The notes beneath the pieces are model-generated. The model saw only the letters and a list, made by a program, of their open reading frames with translations, had not been told where the DNA came from and did not search any database. 64,000 nucleotides of DNA. Origin: Sphaerodactylus townsendi (lineage: Eukaryota). The position numbers and the translations under genes are program-made. Below are positions 6,017-60,900 of the stretch, piece by piece. Positions within the stretch are counted from its first letter, which is position 1. Every line of letters begins with the position of its first letter. The stretch is from assembly GCF_021028975.2 (NCBI RefSeq), contig NC_059431.1:46934001-46998000 (forward strand), in the 5' to 3' direction.

Positions 6017-6321
6017 TGTAAGGAATTCCAAAGAGCAGAAATAAAAAGGCTTTTGATTATAAGTCCGTTTATTCAGACATCCTGGAAAGCACACACACAC
6101 GACATGGCAGGAATGAGCATCCCCGCTCAAACAACAGGTTATAATGCTGACTAACCCATCCCCCCTGCCCCATTCTCATGAGAACGGAATTCTACTATGC
6201 AACAGCGAGATAAGCATTCTCACAAGGTTGGTGCAGGTCCTGGCCGGACGCCCGGCCAAAAGAATCTCCGTCAAGGTCAGGTTAGGCTGTAAGGGAAACA
6301 AGAACGACTGAGATCCTTACA
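6017..6321 (-). repeat. 3' LTR of the Gypsy element (305 bp)
   Basis: Terminal inverted repeats TGTAAGGA...TCCTTACA; AATAAA on the minus strand at 6068-6073. Confidence 0.88.
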
Positions 6322-7055
6322 CTCTGCCTCCCCTAAAAGAAATCTCCCCTTTTCCCCCGGTTTGTCCGGAAAAGCTTGGTGAAATGCAGCAATTAAAGAG
6401 GGGGCATCGATATTCTCCTTATACACCCATTGATTATGGCCAGAAGAATAGCCAACCCATGACACCAGATATTGTAGACGTTTGCGAAAGAAGCGAGAGT
6501 CCAGGATAGCGTCTATCTCATAATGCTTATGTCCATCAATTATAACTGGCGGGGGTGTCTCCGGAGGGTCGTGCCAGGCATCTGAAGCGGGAGCCTCCTT
6601 GAGTAAGCGGATCAGCAGAAGGATTAAGATCCACGGGTGCCGCTGAAAGACTAAGCGCAGTTTCTTCCTCTTCGACATCCTCATCAAAAGTAGCTTTGGA
6701 CGATCCTTGAGTTGGCAGGCTGGATTTGCGTGGAGGCTTGGCAGACGGAGTGCGGGCCCCCGGGAGGGGAGGCTTCTGCTTCTTCGGGCAGTTGGCAGCC
6801 AGGTGGCCAGGACCTCCGCAATAGAGGCACAATCCCAAACGGCGACAGCGTTCCGACGTGGTCTCGGCCGCTACGGCTGGGCTTGGTTTTCTAGCGGCCG
6901 GCGCCGGCATGTTGGCTGGTTTCGGGCGTGGGCGGCCTCCAGCACGGGCATAGGCAAGACGGGCAGCAACCTGCGAGCCGAGCTCGATCCAATCCGCAAG
7001 CGTTTGCGGGATCCGAATAAGGATCACTGTTTCACGAACGACTGAGATCCTTACA
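6017..7055 (-). mobile_element. Internally deleted Gypsy/chromovirus (sushi-like) LTR retrotransposon
   Basis: 5-bp TSD GGTTC (6012-6016, 7056-7060); 3' LTR 6017..6321; purine-rich PPT-like TAGGGGAGGCAGAG next to the LTR; Gag CCHC knuckle CLYCGGPGHLAANC; chromodomain YEIDAILDSRFFRKRLQYLVSWVGYSSGHNQW; 5' LTR reduced to 20 bp (7036..7055). Confidence 0.92.
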
Positions 7056-10000
7056 GGTTCTTCCCTTACAGGTTCTTCCCACGAACGACTGAGATCCTTA
7101 CAGGTTCTTCCCATCCCCATCCCCAAGCCCAACCCTTCCAAGGCTCCACCCACAAAATTTACAAACCCATTTCTGATAACCCCATTAATGTTTGAGGCTT
7201 ATTTTGGTCATCTGAGAAATCAAGCAGAAATAAGAAATGCAGCATGTGGCAAGATGGCCTCACAAGTACCTGTTTCTGTACCTTGCGAATGAAGAGATTA
7301 CTCAGTCAACCCATGTTCTCCAGTCTTTGGATCCACAACAAGTATCTTCTTCTCCCACACCCCAGTTCTCTCTTCATCAAAGCAGTTTTAAGAGGTTTAT
7401 CTAGCCCAAGTGTTTGAGCTGGCGTTCCTCTCTCTTTTGGTCTTTGAAGCACTGTAGCACCACTTTTGGTTTTCTCTCCTTTTCTACTCCTGGTAAACAT
7501 GGATCAAATGGAGTTTATAATTCTCAGAGATCAGTCTGAAAGCACATTTTAATAAATGTTAAATTAATTTAAAGAATTTAAATTTAAAATTTAAAGAATT
7601 TTAATAAGAAAATTAAAAGCACAAACTGCATATTTATTTATTTACTTACTTAAATTTGAGATCTTGCTTTTTGTCATTTAAAGCAGCATAGGCAACACAA
7701 CAACTGGACAAAAAATAAATAAAAGTAGTTCAAACACATTCTCCAGCCCTTGGGTCTCATAACTTCTCTCTCTGACATTAATAAAACATCTCTAAGTTGC
7801 ATTTATTGCTCTGGTTTCAGTATTTGGAAATCATCCTTGCCTCCTCAGGACCATGGGCTCATGGCTACTTACTTGAGCTAAGACAGACTCCTCCCTTGTG
7901 CTAAAGATGTGTAAAATGGCCTCCCTCTTTAACAAGCTGTAATGTTTCATTCTCTGTCTTTGTTCACCCTATGCCACTGCTTTCTGCCTTCTCATTCTAC
8001 CTGCCAAGAGGTTTATTTGTATTTGGGCTCCCAGGCATTTCTGTGACACTAGAGAAGCGAGTCGTACCTACCGGTACTTGTTTCTTTTTATTACCTCTGA
8101 CTCTGAAAAGTACAAACTTTGAGGCTGCAAACTTCAACCCTAATTTTGCAATGGGGCTGCAAACTTGGAACTAATCCTAAGGGACAGAAGATATTTCACC
8201 TTAAAAAATGAATTTTTATGCCATTAAATCACAGTTGACTTATAGTGACCAACGCAGGGATTTCAAGGCAAGATACATTCCAAGTTGGTTTGCCATTGCT
8301 GTGACTGCATTCCCTGGAATTCCTTGGCAGTCTCCATGTGAATATTGTAGAATAGGTCCTGCTTAGCTTCCTGTGGTGTATGTGGATTCATGCAACTACT
8401 CACTCTGACAGATGCTCTTTCAGCTCTGCTAAGGAAATGAATTGGGAGAGGGGAAGCAATAAAAGTATGGTACATTTTGGAAACAATGTAATGCTTGGCC
8501 AGCCAGGCTGCACTGAGGTCACTATACTTATGATATAGAGACAGTTTTGATCCAAGAAAGATGTCTTGTTTTTGTCAGATGTAGAAGGATACCTGTTTGC
8601 ACTTATTCACTATCATGCTAGTTGGAAAGTAAGAAACATACATCAGTATCAATTCTCTTGAAATCATGTCAGTCAGAACCCATGAATTGTTTAGAATAAA
8701 GCAACCTATGTTGGCTATAAAACTCAAGGGACTCAATTCCAAATTCAATCAATTTTCATAGTTCTGTTGGCTGGTATAATGGATGATTTCAAGTTCCACT
8801 CTCCACGAGCCTAAGGTTGCCAGGTTCCCCCTGGCAACTGGCAGGGGGTGAGGAACTTACTAACAACAAACTTTGGCCTAGTTCTCTGTCATCAGCAACT
8901 CAGTAATGTCATTTCCAGTGTTCAATGGAAATTATGCCATCACATCCCGGATGACTACAATAACACTCTGATATTTGGGCAAAACTGTGTGGTAAAAATA
9001 TATTGTCTAAATACCAATAGGTCCCCATGATCATTGGTGACATGATGATGGCATGCTGGAAGTGCTGTTGCCACATTGCTGCCAACAGAGATCTAAGCTT
9101 ATGTATACTTCCAATAAGCTCCCCTGTTGGATGGCTGAACAGTTCTCTGGGGAAGGGCTGCAAAGCAAGGGATTCCCCCACTCCCAGCAAGGTCTACGTG
9201 GACCTCAGCCAATCACTTTCAAATGGGGATTGGAATGTTGAAAGGGGAAAAGAGGTGAAATATGGTGGTTTAGCTGCTGTCTGATTAGAAAGTCTGCTTT
9301 GTTAAGCAGGGAGTCTATTAGAGACCTGGTATTTCAATCATTCATTCATTCAGTTTCTAGACTGCTCTTCCCTATTGTGATAGGTTCAGGTAAGATTTGG
9401 CCAGGTGTTATTCCTGTCAAAAACAGTTAAAAGTAAAAAGCTTTTCTATCCCATGTTATAAGTCTCAATCAAACAAACAAGAAACCTGTTTTTTAACTGT
9501 TTTCTCTGGTGGCCTCAACTCTCCAGTAACTTTTCTATGGTAATGCTACAGGGGCTGGAGAAAAGGAAAACAAAAAAATAACCAAGCCATGCATGCCACT
9601 GAAATAATCCTGTTCTTAATTGTTTTCATCAAGTTTACTGTGAGGTTCCTTCAAGTCTATTATCCTTGCACACAAGCCAAGGGAATGCTGGATGGTACCA
9701 TGAGTCCATGTATTGCCCTCATTGAGAGCTAGAAGACAAAGTGATCCCAAAAGTCTCAGTTATAAAAATAAAAGTATAAGGAAAAAGTGTGTAAGCTGTG
9801 AAATTTAAGACCCTAGTTTCTAGGTCTGGAGGTGGGGGTGTAATCACAGCTATCTGTAACACATATGGATGCATTAGCATCATAAAAAAGTTAGTCTCAT
9901 GGCAAACCTGGTTCTAAGAAAAATGATGATTGGAAAGGCTCCTATTATTTCTCCCTGCAGGCATTCTGATCTTGGTGTTAAGAATAAAGCCCCTGAAAAA

Positions 10001-12780: not shown

Positions 12781-12883
12781 CTGGCTATTATGGGTTTTCT
12801 GGGCTGTGTGGCCAAGGTCTGGTAGTTTTTGCTCCTAATACACAACAGCCAGTTGATTCCAGCCATGAAAGCCTTCAACAACA
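12781..12883. mobile_element. Collapsed palindromic Penelope-like insertion
   Basis: A minus-strand arm (GGGTTTTCTGGGCTGTGTGGCC...CTCCTAA) is fused to the plus-strand terminus (CACAACAGCCAGTTGATTCCAGCCATGAAAGCCTTCAACAAC); homologous to the 22180, 53540 and 60332 copies; TGAAAATAT repeated on both flanks. Confidence 0.7.
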
Positions 12884-14571
12884 TGCTGAAAATATGCAAT
12901 CAGTTTCTAGCCTGATAACAATTTTAATTGCCATAGAGAGGTATCACAAGACTAATATCAAATCAAGTTCTTGGGGTATGTTTGTTCTCTTTCCCAAATC
13001 CCTTTTTTCCCATACCTCACTTTGCAGGGATGTAAGTCCAGATTTCTGGCAGGTATATCAACAAAAAGTATAGGCTAAATAATCATAATAATCATAATGT
13101 TTCCATTCTTAAGAGATACTTAAATTATTAAAGTATTAAACCTGTAGAAAGGTAGCACAAGTCTCAAGTATTTTAAACTAAAGCACAGATTACTCATACA
13201 TGCACAGACTTAACAATTTTCATTTCTAAAAAGCTTCAGATCTACATATAAGGTCCCCAGTGATTCAGTTGGTACCTGGAAAACCCATTTCCATGATAAT
13301 GGATTTTGTTTTCTTTTTGCTGCCTTTCAGTAGATACTCAGGGATTTCTAAGCATGAAAACTGAAAAGTATAACAATCTGTCAAGTTAGATTGAAATTAC
13401 CAGAAATACTACCTAGAATGAATTTGTGGAATGCCACTTTCATATCTCCCCCCAGGACACAGAAACACAAAAGTACTGTTCCACTGGCATAAATGACATT
13501 TCACCGATGCAACAGCATTTTTGGATCCAAGCCACTATTTATAGATATGAATTTACTGTATTCATTAGAAAAAATGATTCTTCACCACCACAGTAAATGA
13601 CTTATCTTTATCTTTTCATAATTATTAAAATACCTTAACCTCTAGAGAAAGGCCTGATCGTTCTCTTATTGTACATCATTCCAAATATTTTAAAAATCCT
13701 ACATAGAATGGAGCTGTAATCAATATATCCAGTAGTTTTTATGAGATGATTTACAATCAATTTGCATATTGTAGTGTTTGAAATGACCTTGAGTATTCTG
13801 ATAAAATTAGTTTACAAGATTCACCAAGGTCCTATTTTATATTTAATAATAATTTCTATTACACCTTTAATATGCAAATACTGTGTATCAGTCTTGCTTG
13901 TGCTCACAGCCCCATTGTAGGGTAGGCGCCCAAGATTCCAAAGCACCTGGGAAACTGAGGTTGAAAGATATGTTCAGGAATTACAGGCCTTACGAATCCA
14001 AATCTAATATTTTCTTACCAAACTGCCTGTTTTTGAAACTCTTTTGATAGATTGAGCAGTAAGATTTTTACAGTAATTGCAGTGTCTCTTTGTAAGGAAT
14101 CAGGGGCCCATTTTTTGGGTGTCATGTAGACAAATATACTCTCTCTAGTCTCACAAAAGTTAATTCTTCTCTGAATAAGGAAAGTACCATATCATGACAC
14201 ACATGGTAATTTTGTGCACTTCATATTGACGCATTATCTATCTCAGGGTTTGTCGCTTTTTATCACTCTACCAGCAGCTACATTCTTATTATTATTGACA
14301 TGACAATAGCACAGTTATTTATTTTATACGGTGTTATAAGCAATAAATTTTGCTTACGTCTCAAATAGTGAACTGGTTAATGACGTGTCTTTGCCTGGGG
14401 TAGTTTTATGTTGTCTTGTCATATAATATTGTTACCTGCAATATGAACTGGGGGGAAAGGAAGATAGTACCTCAGTGTGTGTTGTCTTATTTTACCTTGT
14501 CATTATAGTTGTGTAAAGTAATATATGACTGACACTGAAGTTCTTTTTACCTCATGTGGTTACTTGGACAG

Positions 14572-14830
14572 GAGTCAGGATCAATTTTTCTTGCCTGCAA
14601 TTCCTAATGCTTCTGGAAGCAGAGTGAATTCTCTTGAAGATCGAATGTCCAATCAGGAGAGGACCACTGCTGTCCTTCTGGATCAGGCCTTTCGAATAAA
14701 AGATGGCATTGTTTCTTACCTTCAGGGAAATAAAGGCTTTCAGCAAGGAGAGGCAGTAGCACTCCAGCTACTGGAGAACCACATACAGACTATCACAAGC
14801 ATAGTTAAAAAGCTCAGCCATGACATTGAG
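14572..14830 (+). CDS. FAM81B: FAM81B coding exon 2
   Basis: CAG|G acceptor, GAG|GTACCT donor; encodes SQDQFFLPAIP...LEDRMSNQERTTAVLLDQAFRIKD...LLENHIQTITSIVKKLSHDIE, a FAM81 family signature. Confidence 0.93.
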
Positions 14831-15109
14831 GTACCTCTGTATTTACATTTAGCATTAATGGCAATGTGATAACCCTCTTCTTTCTCCAGTAGCATTTTTT
14901 CAGCTATAGACAGATTGACTTAATATTAAGTTCTTATAAAATATGTATATATCTTTGTTCTCCCCAAGAGACATGAAGTCTAGTCAGCTAGCTGGTTTAA
15001 CTCCTGAATGCAAAATGTCTAAAGTTAGCCTCATAAATAAGACAAGGGAAGCCACGAAGGACAGAATTTTAGCCAGTGAGACCTGATATAGCAGACTCTA
15101 CTTTTCTTA

Positions 15110-19094: not shown

Positions 19095-20139
19095 TAAGAA
19101 CATAAGAACATAAGAATAAGCCAGCTGGATCAGACCAGAGTCCATCTAGTCCAGCTCTCTGCTACTCGCAGTGGCCCACCAGGTGCCTTTGGGAGCTCAC
19201 ATGCAGGATGTGAAAGCAAGGGCCTTCTGCTGCTGCTGTTGCTCCCGAGCACCTGGACTGTTAAGGCATTTGCAATCTCAGATCAAAGAGGATCAAGATT
19301 GGTAGCCATAAATCGACTTCTCCATAAATCTGTCCAAGCCCCTTTTAAAGCTATCCAGGTTAGAGGCCATCACCACCTCCTGTGGCAGCATATTCCAAAC
19401 ACCAATCACACGTTGCATGAAGAAGTGTTTCCTTTTATTAGTCCTAATTCTTCCCCCCAGCATTTTCAATGTATGCCCCCTGGTTCTAGTATTGTGAGAA
19501 AGAGAGAAAAATTTATCTCTGTCAACATTTTCTACCCCATGCATAATTTTGTAGACTTCAATCATATTCCCCCTCAGACGTCTCCTCTCCAAACTAAAGA
19601 GTCCCAAACGCTGCAGCCTCTCCTCATAAGGAAGGTGCTCCAGTCCCTCAGTCATCCTTGTTGCCCTTCTCTGCACTTTTTCTATTTCTTCAATATCCTT
19701 TTTGAGATGTGGCGACCAGAACTGAACACAGTACTGCAAGTGCGGTCGCACCACGGCTTTATATGAGGGCATGACAATCTTTGCAGTTTTATTCTCAATT
19801 CCTTTCCTAATTATCCCCAGCATAGAGTTTGCCTTTTTCACAGCTGCCATGCATTGAGTTGACATTCCCATGGAACTATCAACTAAGACGCCCAAATCTC
19901 TTTCCTGGTCTGTGACTGACAGCACTGACCCCTGTAGCGTGTATGTGAAGTTTGGATTTTTTGCCCCTATGTGCATCACTTTGCATTTTGCTACATTGAA
20001 CTGCATTTGCCATTTCTTAGCCCACTCACCTAATTTATCAAGGTCCGCTTGGAGCTCTTCGCAATCCTTTGCGGTTTTCACCACACTACATGATTTGGTA
20101 TCATCTGCAAACTTGGCCACCATGCTACCCACCCCTAAC
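19095..20139 (-). mobile_element. CR1 LINE, 5'-truncated (RT C-terminus and 3' UTR)
   Basis: ORF 19293..20195: KFADDTK...WQMQFNVAKCKVMH...ERDLGVLVD...RPHLQYCVQFWSPHLKKDI...RLGLFSLERRRLRG; 3' octamer tail (TTCTTATG)n. The long open frame suggests a young copy. Confidence 0.95.
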
Positions 20140-20649
20140 AGGCTGTAGATGCATGGAAAAAAATCCCACCCCCCACATTTTTCATATGTATTCATTTAAT
20201 GCCATGAACATTTATGTTTGGTTTACATGAGTGGTGTACTGACTTAAGTATTAAATATAAATAAAACCAGCAAAAGGCATTACCAATCATTAGACTGTGT
20301 TCTTCTTACCAGTACTGCATCCTTCAGCTATATGATGGGATGAATAAAACTGAGTATGCCTTGCCTATAACAACTTCATGGCAGAAATGAAATCTGAATG
20401 AGGAATTCCATAGCCACAAAATTAGTTTTTTTTTCATTTTGTCACCTTCTTATCCTGGGTAACGACTAAATGGTTAATCTAAGGCTGGGTATAGTCAAGG
20501 AACTAACTGCATGCTGTATGGATTATTCCTTGATGTTATTTTAAATAGATATCAGTCTAAATGAGATGTGGCATTGGGAATGACTACAATGGAAATAATT
20601 GGGATGTGTTGATGGCTACCATGTTTTTATGATGCATTTCCATTTTTAG

Positions 20650-22179: not shown

Positions 22180-22423
22180 GTTACTGATTAGTTCCTTAAT
22201 GATTGGTTCCCCACCCTGGGACATGGACAATATATATCCCACTAACATTCTCTTCTCACTAGACACAATGTGTAACAGACTTCTCTCTGTGATACACCTC
22301 TGAAGATGCCAGCCACAGATGCAGGCGAAACATTAGGAACAAGACCTACCAGACTACGGCCACACAGCCCGGAAAACCCACAGCAACCAATTAATTCTGG
22401 CCGTGAAAGCCTTCGACAATACA
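22180..22423 (+). mobile_element. Penelope-like element 3' end / pseudo-LTR with hammerhead motif
   Basis: CCTCTGAAGATGCCAGCCACAGATGCAGGCGAAACATTAGG followed by ...CACACAGCCCGGAAAACCCAC...GTGAAAGCCTTCGACAATACA. The left boundary is approximate. Confidence 0.75.
22297..22337 (+). ncRNA. Minimal type I hammerhead ribozyme motif (Penelope-type)
   Basis: Stem I CCU/AGG; CUGAAGA (22300-22306); stem II GCC(A)GC/GC(A)GGC; GAAA (22327-22330); the helix III palindrome ACGU has mutated to ACAU. Confidence 0.6.
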
Positions 22424-53539: not shown

Positions 53540-53802
53540 GGGTGCTGTGTCGTTTCCAGGCTGTATGGCCGTGTTCTAGCAGCATTCTCTCCTGACATTT
53601 TGCCTGCATCTGTGGCTGGCATCTTCAGAGGATCTGAAGATGCCAGCCACATCCTCTGCCAGTCAGATCCAGTCAGATTCTCTAAAGATGCCAGCCACAG
53701 ACGCAGGCAAAACGTCAGGAGAGAATGCTGCTAGAACACGGCCATACAGCCCAGAAACCACACAGCACCCCAGTGATTCCAGCCATGAAAGCCTTCGACA
53801 AT
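53540..53802. mobile_element. Palindromic Penelope-derived insertion with inverted hammerhead motifs
   Basis: Long inverted arms; 14-bp direct flank ATATTCCTATCTTG (53526-53539, 53803-53816); motifs at 53591..53631 (-) and 53679..53719 (+). Confidence 0.8.
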
Positions 53803-54220
53803 ATATTCCTATCTTGATCTGTAGTATGCCCTGTACTACGATGAATTCCTTTGGGCCCTGATGGCACTGGGCAAGTTGAGAGTATGAGTGGGAGGCAGAC
53901 TGCTGGTCAGCCAGCTGTTCTTTTGTCCTGAGATGTGTGGTATGAATTGGAGGCTGTTCATTGAACCTCAGCAGCATAGAGTGATGGAAAAAGTTGGCTT
54001 AGCTTAAAACAGCCCAGTTGAGTCTTTTTAATGGATAAAAAGATTCCTTCCAAAGCAGAGTCTGGAGCTGCAGCTCCTCTAAGGCTGCCTGGTTCATTTG
54101 GTGCAATGGGAGCAGGTGTCCAATTTATGGATTTCTCCTAAACACAGCAGAGGTTGTGCCCATTAGAAACTGATGGCTTCATTCTATAGTTTCAGAACTT
54201 TTTAAAAAAAGACTGCCTAT

Positions 54221-58410: not shown

Positions 58411-58667
58411 AGTGTTGTTTTAACTGTTTTTGGGATCTTAACCACTATGCACTGCTGCTCATGGATTCCCCAGAACAACAGGGAGACCCACATCAATTAA
58501 AACTGCAACAGGGCATCTTAGAAAATCAATCATTTGCATGTCCTTGAAGTGTACAGAATGTTTTTAAAGAATTAAAAAGATTTTGACATGTAGCTAACTG
58601 AACAGAGAATAATATCATTCAAAGTACTTTAATCACTGAGTTGGATAAACAGTTAACAATTACATAC

Positions 58668-58791
58668 CACTTAAACAAGAGGCTCTTTGCAGCATCCACC
58701 TGATTCTGCTTGTATTCCATTATTGCAAGAGCTGTCATGATATATGCTTTATCTTGCTCACAGTCAGCAAGAGAGAGCGCTCTTTCATAAG
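58668..58791 (-). CDS. SKIC3: SKIC3 exon
   Basis: CAG / GTATGT; [42 protein letters not shown]; 124 nt. Confidence 0.95.
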
Positions 58792-59213: not shown

Positions 59214-60331
59214 CTTGCAAGAGGAAAGAATAAAACCCAATGAAAGTGTATGCCAATAAAGGCTTTTGAATCGAATCGAAAAAACCCCCAATGAAAACGT
59301 CTATTTAATTCAACTTGACGCACATTTCAAATCGCAGAATAAGTTCCTAATTACATAATGCAACTTTCAAAGAATTATGTGAATCCCAGCCCCATAAATA
59401 AATGATAATTTTGCCATTGTTTTCAATAAGCACTATGTGGCACCAGCTAACTTTTCCATGATCCAATAGTTCATTTGAAGAAAAACTACCATGGAAAAAG
59501 CATGATTTTATTCAACATACGCAATTTATCTCCACAAATATAGTGAAATGTGGTTCACCAATGCAATTTTAGAAACTGACTTAGACTACAGGTCAGCAAA
59601 GTTTTCTCTTCCCAAACACCCTGGACAGCAGATTGGACTGAGAGTGGTCCAAAAAACACCCAGTGAGTTTAATAGTCAAGTGGAGATTTAAACCCAGGTC
59701 TCCCTAATCATAGCCCAATACTAACCTTGACACCAACATAGCTCAACAGTTTCATTATACGGACTACGTTAGACTTCAGTTTTTCAGTTACTCTGAAGTA
59801 TAATTTAAGATGCTGACTTTGATTTTGAAAACCTTGTACTATTTGGGATGGTTAATTTAGGGACTGCTCTAAACTTTCAAGTTTATTTCAAAAACAAGTG
59901 ATTTTTTTATAAGTATTAATCATCTAGGAGATATTAAAGACACAGTCCACTAATATAATACACATTGAACTAAGGTTTAAAAAATGTAGTTACCGATCAA
60001 CTCACATCTACATCATGGTCACAGTTGCCATTCAACAATTTAAATTCTGCACACAGGGTGAGATTCCAAAGAAGCCCATTAGTGCTTTCAATGTAGCTGT
60101 TCAACTATGTGTGGTATCACAGATAAAAGTAATGGACCAGGACTGGAAAGGCACAGGTTCAAATCCCTCCTTGCACTCTCTTCCCTACCCCATACAAATG
60201 TTACTTGGCAAACGGCTTCTGAAACTGAACTGGCAAAGCTGGTTTGTATTACAGGAAAAGGGTGTCAAAAGAAAATGTCCCAGTGTGTTGCCTAAGCCCG
60301 CAGGCATACCTCAAATAGTTTTGGGTTTGTT

Positions 60332-60570
60332 GTAGGGTTTCCAGGTTGTATGGCCGTAGTTCCAAAAGTCTTTTCTCCTGACGTTTTGCCTGCATCTGTG
60401 GCTGGCATCTTCAGAGGATCTAGTGGCAGGATCTAGTGACTGCCACAAGATCCTCTGAAGATGCCAGCCACAGATGCAGGAAATGTCTGGAGAAAAGACG
60501 AACACGGCCATACAACCCAGAAAACTCACAACATTCTAGTGATTCCAGCTGAAAAAGCCTTCTACAGTAC
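60332..60570. mobile_element. Palindromic Penelope-derived insertion with inverted hammerhead motifs
   Basis: 17-bp direct flank ATAGTTTTGGGTTTGTT (60315-60331, 60571-60587); motifs at 60377..60417 (-) and 60452..60490 (+). Confidence 0.8.
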
Positions 60571-60900
60571 ATAGTTTTGGGTTTGTTTGCTTTTAAAAAC
60601 TTGGCTATTAATTCCATAATAGATTTCAAACATTTATACCACAGATGAAACAGTACAATAATTTCTTAAAGCAAGAAGTATTTGCAATTCTTTACAGTGA
60701 GACAATTCATTGTATAGTAGGAAAAGGCAGAAAAATACCACCAATTTATTTTAAATTTTTATTTTTAAATTAATGCCAATTGAGCACTTCTGTTGCAAAT
60801 TTAGTGGAAGTGTAAGAAGAAAACATTTTCTAGAAAGTGATATAGCACATAACATTTTAAATAAAGATTAAAGTGACACACCTTAAAAACAAGCACTTAC

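What the first reader, a model, noticed from the sequence alone, without database searches (positions are those of the whole stretch)
60315..60587. Short palindromic retro-insertion carrying two opposite-strand minimal hammerhead ribozymes
Seen: a ~240-bp insertion with a 17-bp direct flank, built from two inverted arms. Each arm carries CCT-CTGAAGA-T-GCC(A)GC..GC(A)GGC-(G)AAA-CGTC-AGG. The minus copy (60377..60417) differs from a complete core only by G12>A at a CpG; the plus copy has lost 2 nt. Known: Penelope-like elements carry minimal hammerheads whose palindromic helix III (ACGU) is completed by dimerisation, and they often form inverted pseudo-LTRs. Inference: a coding-free, TSD-flanked, both-strand ribozyme cassette could be a non-autonomous Penelope family that moves as a unit (retrozyme-like). 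It would place a self-cleavage motif in any host pre-mRNA whichever strand is transcribed.
Basis: partly seen in the sequence, partly recalled or inferred. Interest (0 to 1): 0.7.

Follow-up and report, generated by a model that had tools for sequence, protein, structure and literature searches.

The report
Mirror-image Penelope stub recording insertion mechanism
This 258-base palindrome is one decayed copy among thousands of back-to-back front ends of a Penelope-type jumping gene, likely rebuilt at each insertion rather than moving as a unit; its own ribozyme motifs are mutated and predicted to stay zipped in a hairpin, but sister copies that begin exactly at the predicted cut site likely record the ribozyme cutting in the living animal.

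Summary
The sequence is as described: two inverted arms, a direct flank and two minimal hammerheads, both mutated. Each arm is the front end (hammerhead plus first 30-40 codons) of a Poseidon-type Penelope-like element whose intact 819-aa ORF is in this genome. Of 158 sampled insertions, 94 are head-to-head pairs, and 69 of 75 scorable pairs have the 35-nt tail on one arm only. Outer ends are fixed; inner junctions and lengths (91-684 bp) vary. So this is not a unit-moving retrozyme. The hairpin (-160 kcal/mol) is predicted to block the ribozyme. The layout is published (PMC3846280, PMC4209133). Not found in my paper searches: (1) inner ends cluster about 30 nt downstream of a TATA motif and shift with it between two subfamilies; (2) 39 of 100 arms in mini-palindromes start exactly at the predicted cleavage site, both arms in 15 of 50 (tallied by eye). 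The scan found the twin-priming reading and the cleavage footprint before on other DNA. No RNA evidence could be obtained.

The parts
60315..60331 (.). Left target-site duplication (17 nt at most; about 11-15 nt after removing junction microhomology)
   Evidence: family maxima 9-16 nt, mode 12
60328..60429 (-). Inverted, tail-less arm: element positions about -12 to +90 (position 1 = first C of helix I)
60377..60417 (-). Minimal type I hammerhead, G12>A
60430..60439 (.). Junction filler; 9 of its 10 nt repeat 60417-60425 (templated insertion)
   Evidence: read from the sequence
60440..60572 (+). Sense arm with tail: element positions about -12 to +128; ORF start codon at 60461
60452..60490 (+). 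Degenerate minimal hammerhead (2-nt deletion plus substitutions in helix III and helix I)
60538..60572 (+). 35-nt Penelope tail, on this arm only
   Evidence: alignment to L036
60571..60587 (.). Right target-site duplication
53540..53806 (.). Second two-arm, one-tail copy in the window, with its own 14-nt duplication and a different filler
22195..22422 (+). Single-arm subfamily B copy with TATA motif, hammerhead and tail
58665..58791 (-). Host exon like TTC37/SKIC3, residues about 1075-1122; the element is inferred to be intronic
   Evidence: PDB sequence match E 1e-11; splice sites

Best explanation
This is a decayed dead-end insertion of two front ends of a Poseidon-type Penelope-like element, likely built on the spot when both strands of a staggered DNA cut primed reverse transcription near the 5' end of the element's RNA. 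SHOWN: the arms are the hammerhead and first codons of an element with an intact ORF in this genome; pairs are head-to-head; one arm ends at +125-128 and the other at +92-95; inner junctions vary; both arms come from the same subfamily. INFERRED: the element's protein cuts both strands about 11-13 nt apart. One 3' end primes at the tail site and the other at the inner site, which are the two start sites mapped in vitro for the Anolis relative. Both cDNAs run to the RNA 5' end. That end is usually a transcription start about 30 nt below a TATA motif, and occasionally the hammerhead cut site. The two same-polarity cDNAs are then joined at self-complementary 4-mers or through templated filler. 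One RNA read twice is favoured over two RNAs, but this is not resolved. The product lacks the TATA motif and is predicted to fold into a long hairpin, so it would be neither mobile nor self-cleaving.
For: Copy number: 29,540 exact 29-nt core matches, control 0. One-tail rule: 69 one-tail, 5 two-tail and 1 no-tail of 75 scorable pairs (p 5e-15); 34/2/1 of 37 in the core-only sample. Genome-wide in one size class: 1,783 palindromes, 1,260 matches with a tail on one named side, 12 with two tails. Subfamily match: 62 AA, 32 BB and 0 mixed of 94 pairs. Duplications in 56 of 69 pairs versus 6 of 150 mixed-flank controls. Inner ends: subfamily A 74 of 139 at -9..+3 (TATA at -33 to -38); subfamily B 40 of 79 at -40..-19 (TATA at -65, seen in 1 of 4 B references). 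Single arms cluster at the same places. Two 5'-complete copies start at about 0 and -7 beside an inverted tail-less arm (L203, L207). The tail-less arm reaches further 5' in 30 of 69 pairs and the tailed arm in 8, so neither is simply a copy of the other. Target microhomology of 2 nt or more: 20 of 35 tail junctions and 14 of 35 inner junctions, versus 17% and 21% in the null. Arms of one insertion share non-consensus bases 0.66 versus 0.085 per pair (A) and 1.58 versus 0.29 (B), 0 of 5,000 permutations. This copy's arms share a change seen in 0 of 46 comparable arm matches. In vitro both-strand cleavage and two start sites: PMC11167929.
Against: The transcription start is inferred from a TATA motif and end clustering only, and the position windows were chosen after seeing the data. 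Both 5' clusters also sit on short palindromes, which could attract junctions by themselves. 19 of 94 pairs have an outer end at neither start site, and 12 of 158 insertions are more complex. Only 13 of 48 single arms have a duplication, so their origin is mixed. Shared variants could come from later arm-to-arm conversion. The sample is the first 8 Mb of contig C1, chosen by exact motif, so it leans to young copies. Only 35 of 66 cases were scorable for target microhomology. One junction recurs in 11 of 50 full-arm palindromes.
Confidence: 0.72

Rival explanations
1. Self-priming or fold-back: one cDNA (or an antisense template) snaps back at a short palindrome and is copied, and the endonuclease resolves the intermediate, leaving a tail on one side. 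This is the reading of Arkhipova et al. 2013 and Craig et al. 2021.
For: Palindromic 4-mers and templated fillers at many junctions. Arms share variants. 18 of 94 pairs have one arm with an outer end away from the start sites. Passages of PMC3846280 and PMC8557442.
Against: In 30 of 69 pairs the tail-less arm holds 5' sequence that the tailed arm lacks, up to several hundred nt. Both outer ends match the start sites mapped in vitro on sense RNA, and both show target microhomology. Six blunt junctions at the cut site show no microhomology.
Confidence: 0.15
2. One reading: a non-autonomous palindromic family copied as one unit.
For: Outer ends are fixed. The best BLAST hits all cover query 14-258. 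One junction recurs in 11 of 50 listed full-arm palindromes, each with its own flanks.
Against: The top hits were ranked by likeness to the query. Motif-sampled copies range 91-684 bp with varied junctions. By eye, no two of the 25 other distinct top hits share a spacer. The 11 recurrent-junction copies show no shared arm-specific changes by eye. The palindromes lack the TATA motif. The same layout caps ORF-bearing copies.
Confidence: 0.07
3. For the cut-site pile-up only: reverse transcriptase stalls at the folded hammerhead, or repair trims to that base, without any cleavage.
For: Frangieh et al. found no RNA-seq reads ending at the site and no need for cleavage in vitro. Some position-39 junctions use helix I microhomology (L241, L247, L248, L252). 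Subfamily B shows no significant peak: 7 of 41 arms within positions 36-43, p 0.25.
Against: A stall would be expected at the 3' edge of helix I (41-42), not after unwinding it (inference). In A, 39 of 79 arms within 36-43 end exactly at 39, versus 2-9 at each neighbour. Both arms end there in 15 of 50. B has the same helix I but a GUU triplet instead of GUC; its weaker cleavage is recalled, and PMC3138052 passages only list GUU as cleavable.
Confidence: 0.25

Closest known systems
Poseidon of Anolis carolinensis (PAc; Frangieh et al. 2024, PMC11167929; parts 1-3 of 4 of the text read; supplements 1-2 gave only figure labels; the xlsx was not read and the gbk could not be)
   Same: Hammerhead overlapping the ORF start codon. 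The arm is collinear by eye with the template printed in their Methods. The tail end at ORF +116-119 fits their start site at +111-118, and the tail lies between two start sites.
   Different: The parts read do not analyse two-armed insertions, the one-tail rule or 5' end clustering. They report no reads at the hammerhead site and priming without homology; here there is a genomic pile-up at the site and 2-4 nt microhomology.
Inverted pLTR plus one-sided 30-40 bp tail of endonuclease-bearing Penelope-like elements (PMC3846280, PMC8557442, PMC2377424; passages read)
   Same: Head-to-head inverted repeat, tail on one end, duplication of about 9-13 bp, palindromes at the junction, TATA and initiator-like motifs in the pLTR.
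   Different: Described for a few long copies and explained by antisense self-priming or endonuclease resolution. Here the ORF-less minimal form is the commonest class sampled (94 of 158) and fits two-site priming better.
Minimal hammerheads of metazoan Penelope-like elements (Cervera and De la Pena 2014, PMC4209133; parts 1-2 of 4 read)
   Same: Same architecture with the extra base before helix II and the palindromic helix III. They already note dual motifs about 100-700 bp apart on opposite strands.
   Different: They state there was no in vivo evidence of cleavage. Both copies in this element are mutated.
Non-LTR retrozymes (PMC7229834, passages; bioRxiv 10.64898/2026.07.22.740005, part 1 of 5 and passages)
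   Same: Short, ORF-less, hammerhead-bearing and Penelope-derived.
   Different: Retrozymes are same-strand tandem repeats giving circular RNAs; this is an inverted pair with a variable junction.
L1 twin priming (recalled; seen only in search listings)
   Same: Both cut ends prime, giving an inverted 5' piece inside a duplication.
   Different: In L1 the two pieces cover different parts of the RNA; here they overlap almost fully. Three pairs (L061, L114, L134) show the classic non-overlapping form.

Membership tests
Penelope/Poseidon-type EN+ PLE insertion | Linked to a single RT plus C-terminal GIY-YIG-type ORF | tested here: met
   819-aa ORF starting in the hammerhead; RVT_1 E 1e-12. The C-terminal nuclease motif was recognised by eye from recall and had no Pfam hit. 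The arm is 80-84% identical to the end of ORF-bearing L036.
Penelope/Poseidon-type EN+ PLE insertion | Inverted pLTR piece with a 30-40 bp tail on one side | tested here: met
Penelope/Poseidon-type EN+ PLE insertion | Target-site duplication | tested here: met
   56 of 69 versus 6 of 150
Penelope/Poseidon-type EN+ PLE insertion | RT phylogeny inside the Penelope/Poseidon clade | not tested
   No tree was built; placement rests on likeness to the PAc template.
Minimal type I hammerhead | Intact CUGANGA and GAAA cores with a UH site, family level | tested here: met
   Commonest form among 110 arm matches: GUC 37, GUU 14; the rest mostly CpG decay.
Minimal type I hammerhead | Intact cores in this copy | tested here: not met
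   G12>A on minus; deletion plus substitutions on plus. Both arms are intact in only 6 of 38 pairs that span the motif twice.
Minimal type I hammerhead | Self-cleavage of the RNA | not testable with these tools
   Only the indirect genomic footprint.
Non-LTR retrozyme | Same-strand tandem units, each with a hammerhead | tested here: not met
   The arms are inverted.
Non-LTR retrozyme | Circular RNA | not testable with these tools
   No raw RNA reads were offered.
Unit-mobile non-autonomous element (SINE- or MITE-like) | Conserved length and internal sequence across independent sites | tested here: not met
   91-684 bp and variable junctions; a recurrent junction in 11 of 50 is the exception.

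The most novel reading that the evidence does not exclude
These stubs are a fossil record of the Penelope insertion reaction. Each event uses the two internal RT start sites once each, on opposite strands of one cut and probably on one RNA. The cDNAs run off a TATA-directed 5' end. A small share of templates had already been cut by the minimal hammerhead at GUC, which would be genomic evidence that these weak ribozymes cleave in the germ line.
Probability: 0.55. Interest if true: 0.68.

Novelty: new member of a known kind. Interest (0 to 1): 0.47.

Why it matters
The single copy is ordinary and probably inert. The family bears on two open questions named in the papers read: how Penelope-like elements make inverted ends with a one-sided tail, and whether their minimal hammerheads cleave in vivo. 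It gives sharp predictions (one tail per event, a start site at -7..0, a cut-site product at +39) for an in vitro system that already exists for the Anolis relative. A practical point: such stubs score as miRNA-like hairpins and can be mis-built as palindromic repeat consensuses.

Tried and rejected
Rfam scan: no hammerhead family hit; the miRNA matches are below gathering and reflect the hairpin. RNA evidence: no RNA holder listed and only assembled contigs were offered, so no reads were laid. Cap-derived extra G at arm 5' ends: a G precedes the commonest start in 14 of 22 cases, but the palindromic junction explains most, so it is inconclusive. Dimer co-fold of two natural hammerhead copies did not give the helix III dimer as the minimum-energy structure, so it is uninformative. 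A first reference set held one wrong reference and was redone. The position-41 and -43 controls held many small indels: 11 of 20 and 9 of 20 were truncations, versus 39 of 45 unselected position-39 hits (L308-L312 were picked as pairs and are left out of that ratio). Lunse et al. (dimer cleavage) is not held and was seen only as cited in PMC6765202 passages. Sequence look-up in earlier scan findings was blank. Not-in-print statements rest; subscription papers (e.g. Arkhipova 2006, Evgen'ev and Arkhipova 2005), Repbase notes and unread figure supplements may already cover them.

Full report
OBSERVATION. The element is there as described. A 17-nt direct repeat brackets an inverted arm (60328-60429), a 10-nt filler and a sense arm (60440-60572). 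The minus hammerhead (60377-60417) has G12>A. The plus one (60452-60490) has a 2-nt deletion and two further substitutions. Either strand folds into one long hairpin (-160.6 and -152.9 kcal/mol; z -17.9 and -16.7). A TTC37-like exon lies about 1.5 kb away on the minus strand, so the element is probably intronic. The host is likely a lizard, inferred from likeness to the Anolis element.

WHAT IT IS. The 29-nt core occurs 29,540 times exactly in the 1.81-Gb genome and the tail 18-mer 15,715 times, with reversed controls at 0. Longer copies lead into RT and nuclease sequence, and L194 holds an intact 819-aa ORF whose ATG lies inside the hammerhead. This is the layout reported for Poseidon of Anolis (PMC11167929). 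Each arm is therefore the hammerhead plus the first 30-40 codons of the autonomous element.

DOES IT MOVE AS A UNIT? The best BLAST hits look uniform because they were ranked by likeness. I therefore sampled by exact motif: 160 loci from the first 8 Mb of C1 gave 163 insertions, of which 5 at locus edges were dropped. Of 158, 94 are head-to-head pairs, 52 single arms and 12 complex. Outer ends fall at +91-98 or +125-128. Of the 75 pairs with both ends at these sites, 69 have one tail, 5 have two and 1 has none; 19 pairs had another end. Independent choice would give half (p 5e-15; core-only sample 34 of 37, p 6e-8). Genome-wide in one size class there are 1,783 palindromes, 1,260 matches with a tail on one named side and 12 with two tails. 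Duplications flank 56 of 69 pairs versus 6 of 150 controls. Total length runs from 91 to 684 bp and junctions differ. Long and 5'-complete copies carry the same inverted cap (L192, L203, L205, L207). Against my reading, 13 of the first 50 listed palindromes share one length and 11 of these share one GATC-overlap junction. They have separate flanks and, by eye, no arm-specific shared changes, which fits repeated joining at a self-complementary 4-mer.

INNER ENDS. In subfamily A, 74 of 139 arms start at -9..+3 and the TATA motif is at -33 to -38. In B, 40 of 79 start at -40..-19 and the motif is at -65 (Fisher p 8e-24 on windows chosen afterwards). The motif was clear in only 1 of 4 B references. 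Single arms and two 5'-complete copies start at the same place. I infer run-off at the transcription start. This is untested on RNA, and short palindromes at both clusters are a confound.

TWO PRIMING EVENTS. The tail-less arm reaches more than 10 nt further 5' in 30 of 69 pairs and the tailed arm in 8 (18 versus 3 in the core-only sample), so neither arm is just a copy of the other. Both target junctions show excess short microhomology in the 35 of 66 scorable cases. Arms of one insertion share variants far more than arms of different insertions, and no pair mixes subfamilies. In three pairs the tailed arm stops at +85 to +94, as in classic twin priming (recalled). One RNA read twice fits best; a protein dimer with two RNAs, or later conversion, is not excluded.

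RIBOZYME. In this copy it is likely dead. The cores are mutated, helix probabilities are 0.0 in the full transcript versus 0.99 for helix II in the arm alone, and dimer partners must be on the same strand (PMC4209133). At family level, arms starting exactly at +39, the base after GUC, are enriched. There are 229 pattern hits, 39 of 45 unselected ones true truncations (about 200), versus about 97 at +41 and 44 at +43. Among the first 50 of 105 mini-palindromes, 39 of 100 arms end at +39 versus 2-9 at each neighbour; both arms do in 15, six of them blunt (tallied by eye; p 2e-15). Subfamily B, with GUU, shows no significant peak (7 of 41 within +36..+43 among 35 insertions; A versus B p 7e-4). 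In B, +38 and +39 cannot always be told apart; pooling them gives p 0.03 for A versus B. This is a small share of all arms (order 1%) and is indirect. RT stalling remains a rival.

COMPARISON AND NOVELTY. Inverted pLTRs with a one-sided tail and junction palindromes (PMC3846280, PMC8557442), opposite-strand hammerhead pairs and the two start sites are published. My searches found no paper stating the one-tail rule, TATA-linked run-off or a cut-site footprint, but key subscription papers and figure supplements were not readable. Earlier scan notes on other genomes report the same class and, separately, the footprint. I reached the twin-priming reading before and the footprint; these notes are unchecked and are not counted as support.

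VERDICT. A real but ordinary, decayed Penelope stub and a new member of a known kind. The value lies in what the family records about the insertion reaction. Interest 0.47.

Noticed in passing
L132:934-2447 (G000:C1, about 4,702,430 onward): Same-strand tandem array of at least 14 units of about 109 nt, each a subfamily B arm with hammerhead. This is a real retrozyme-like layout. Later units are full of small insertions that may be read errors.
   Followed up: partly
L203:2703-5423 (G000:C3): Intact 819-aa ORF preceded by an inverted tail-less arm; its 3' end is replaced by a repeat of about 250 bp of the upstream flank.
   Followed up: partly
L259/L260 and L312: Arms starting at the cut site next to pieces that run past the tail into the ORF, suggesting template jumps.
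   Followed up: no
L204 (G000:C9:38794124-38794801): The protein search listed a 2,028-aa open frame here, although the element copy is only about 1.4 kb; unexplained.
   Followed up: partly
window 58665-58791 (-): Exon matching TTC37/SKIC3.
   Followed up: partly
window 6277-7198 (-): Frames with chromodomain-like and zinc-knuckle-like motifs, likely a broken LTR retrotransposon remnant (motifs recalled).
   Followed up: no
window 19293-20195 (-): 300-aa frame resembling the 3' part of a CR1-type LINE reverse transcriptase (recalled).
   Followed up: no
window 14522-14869 (+): Frame that looks like an exon of a second host gene, not identified.
   Followed up: no
window 12788-12880: Short diverged two-armed fragment of the same family.
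   Followed up: no
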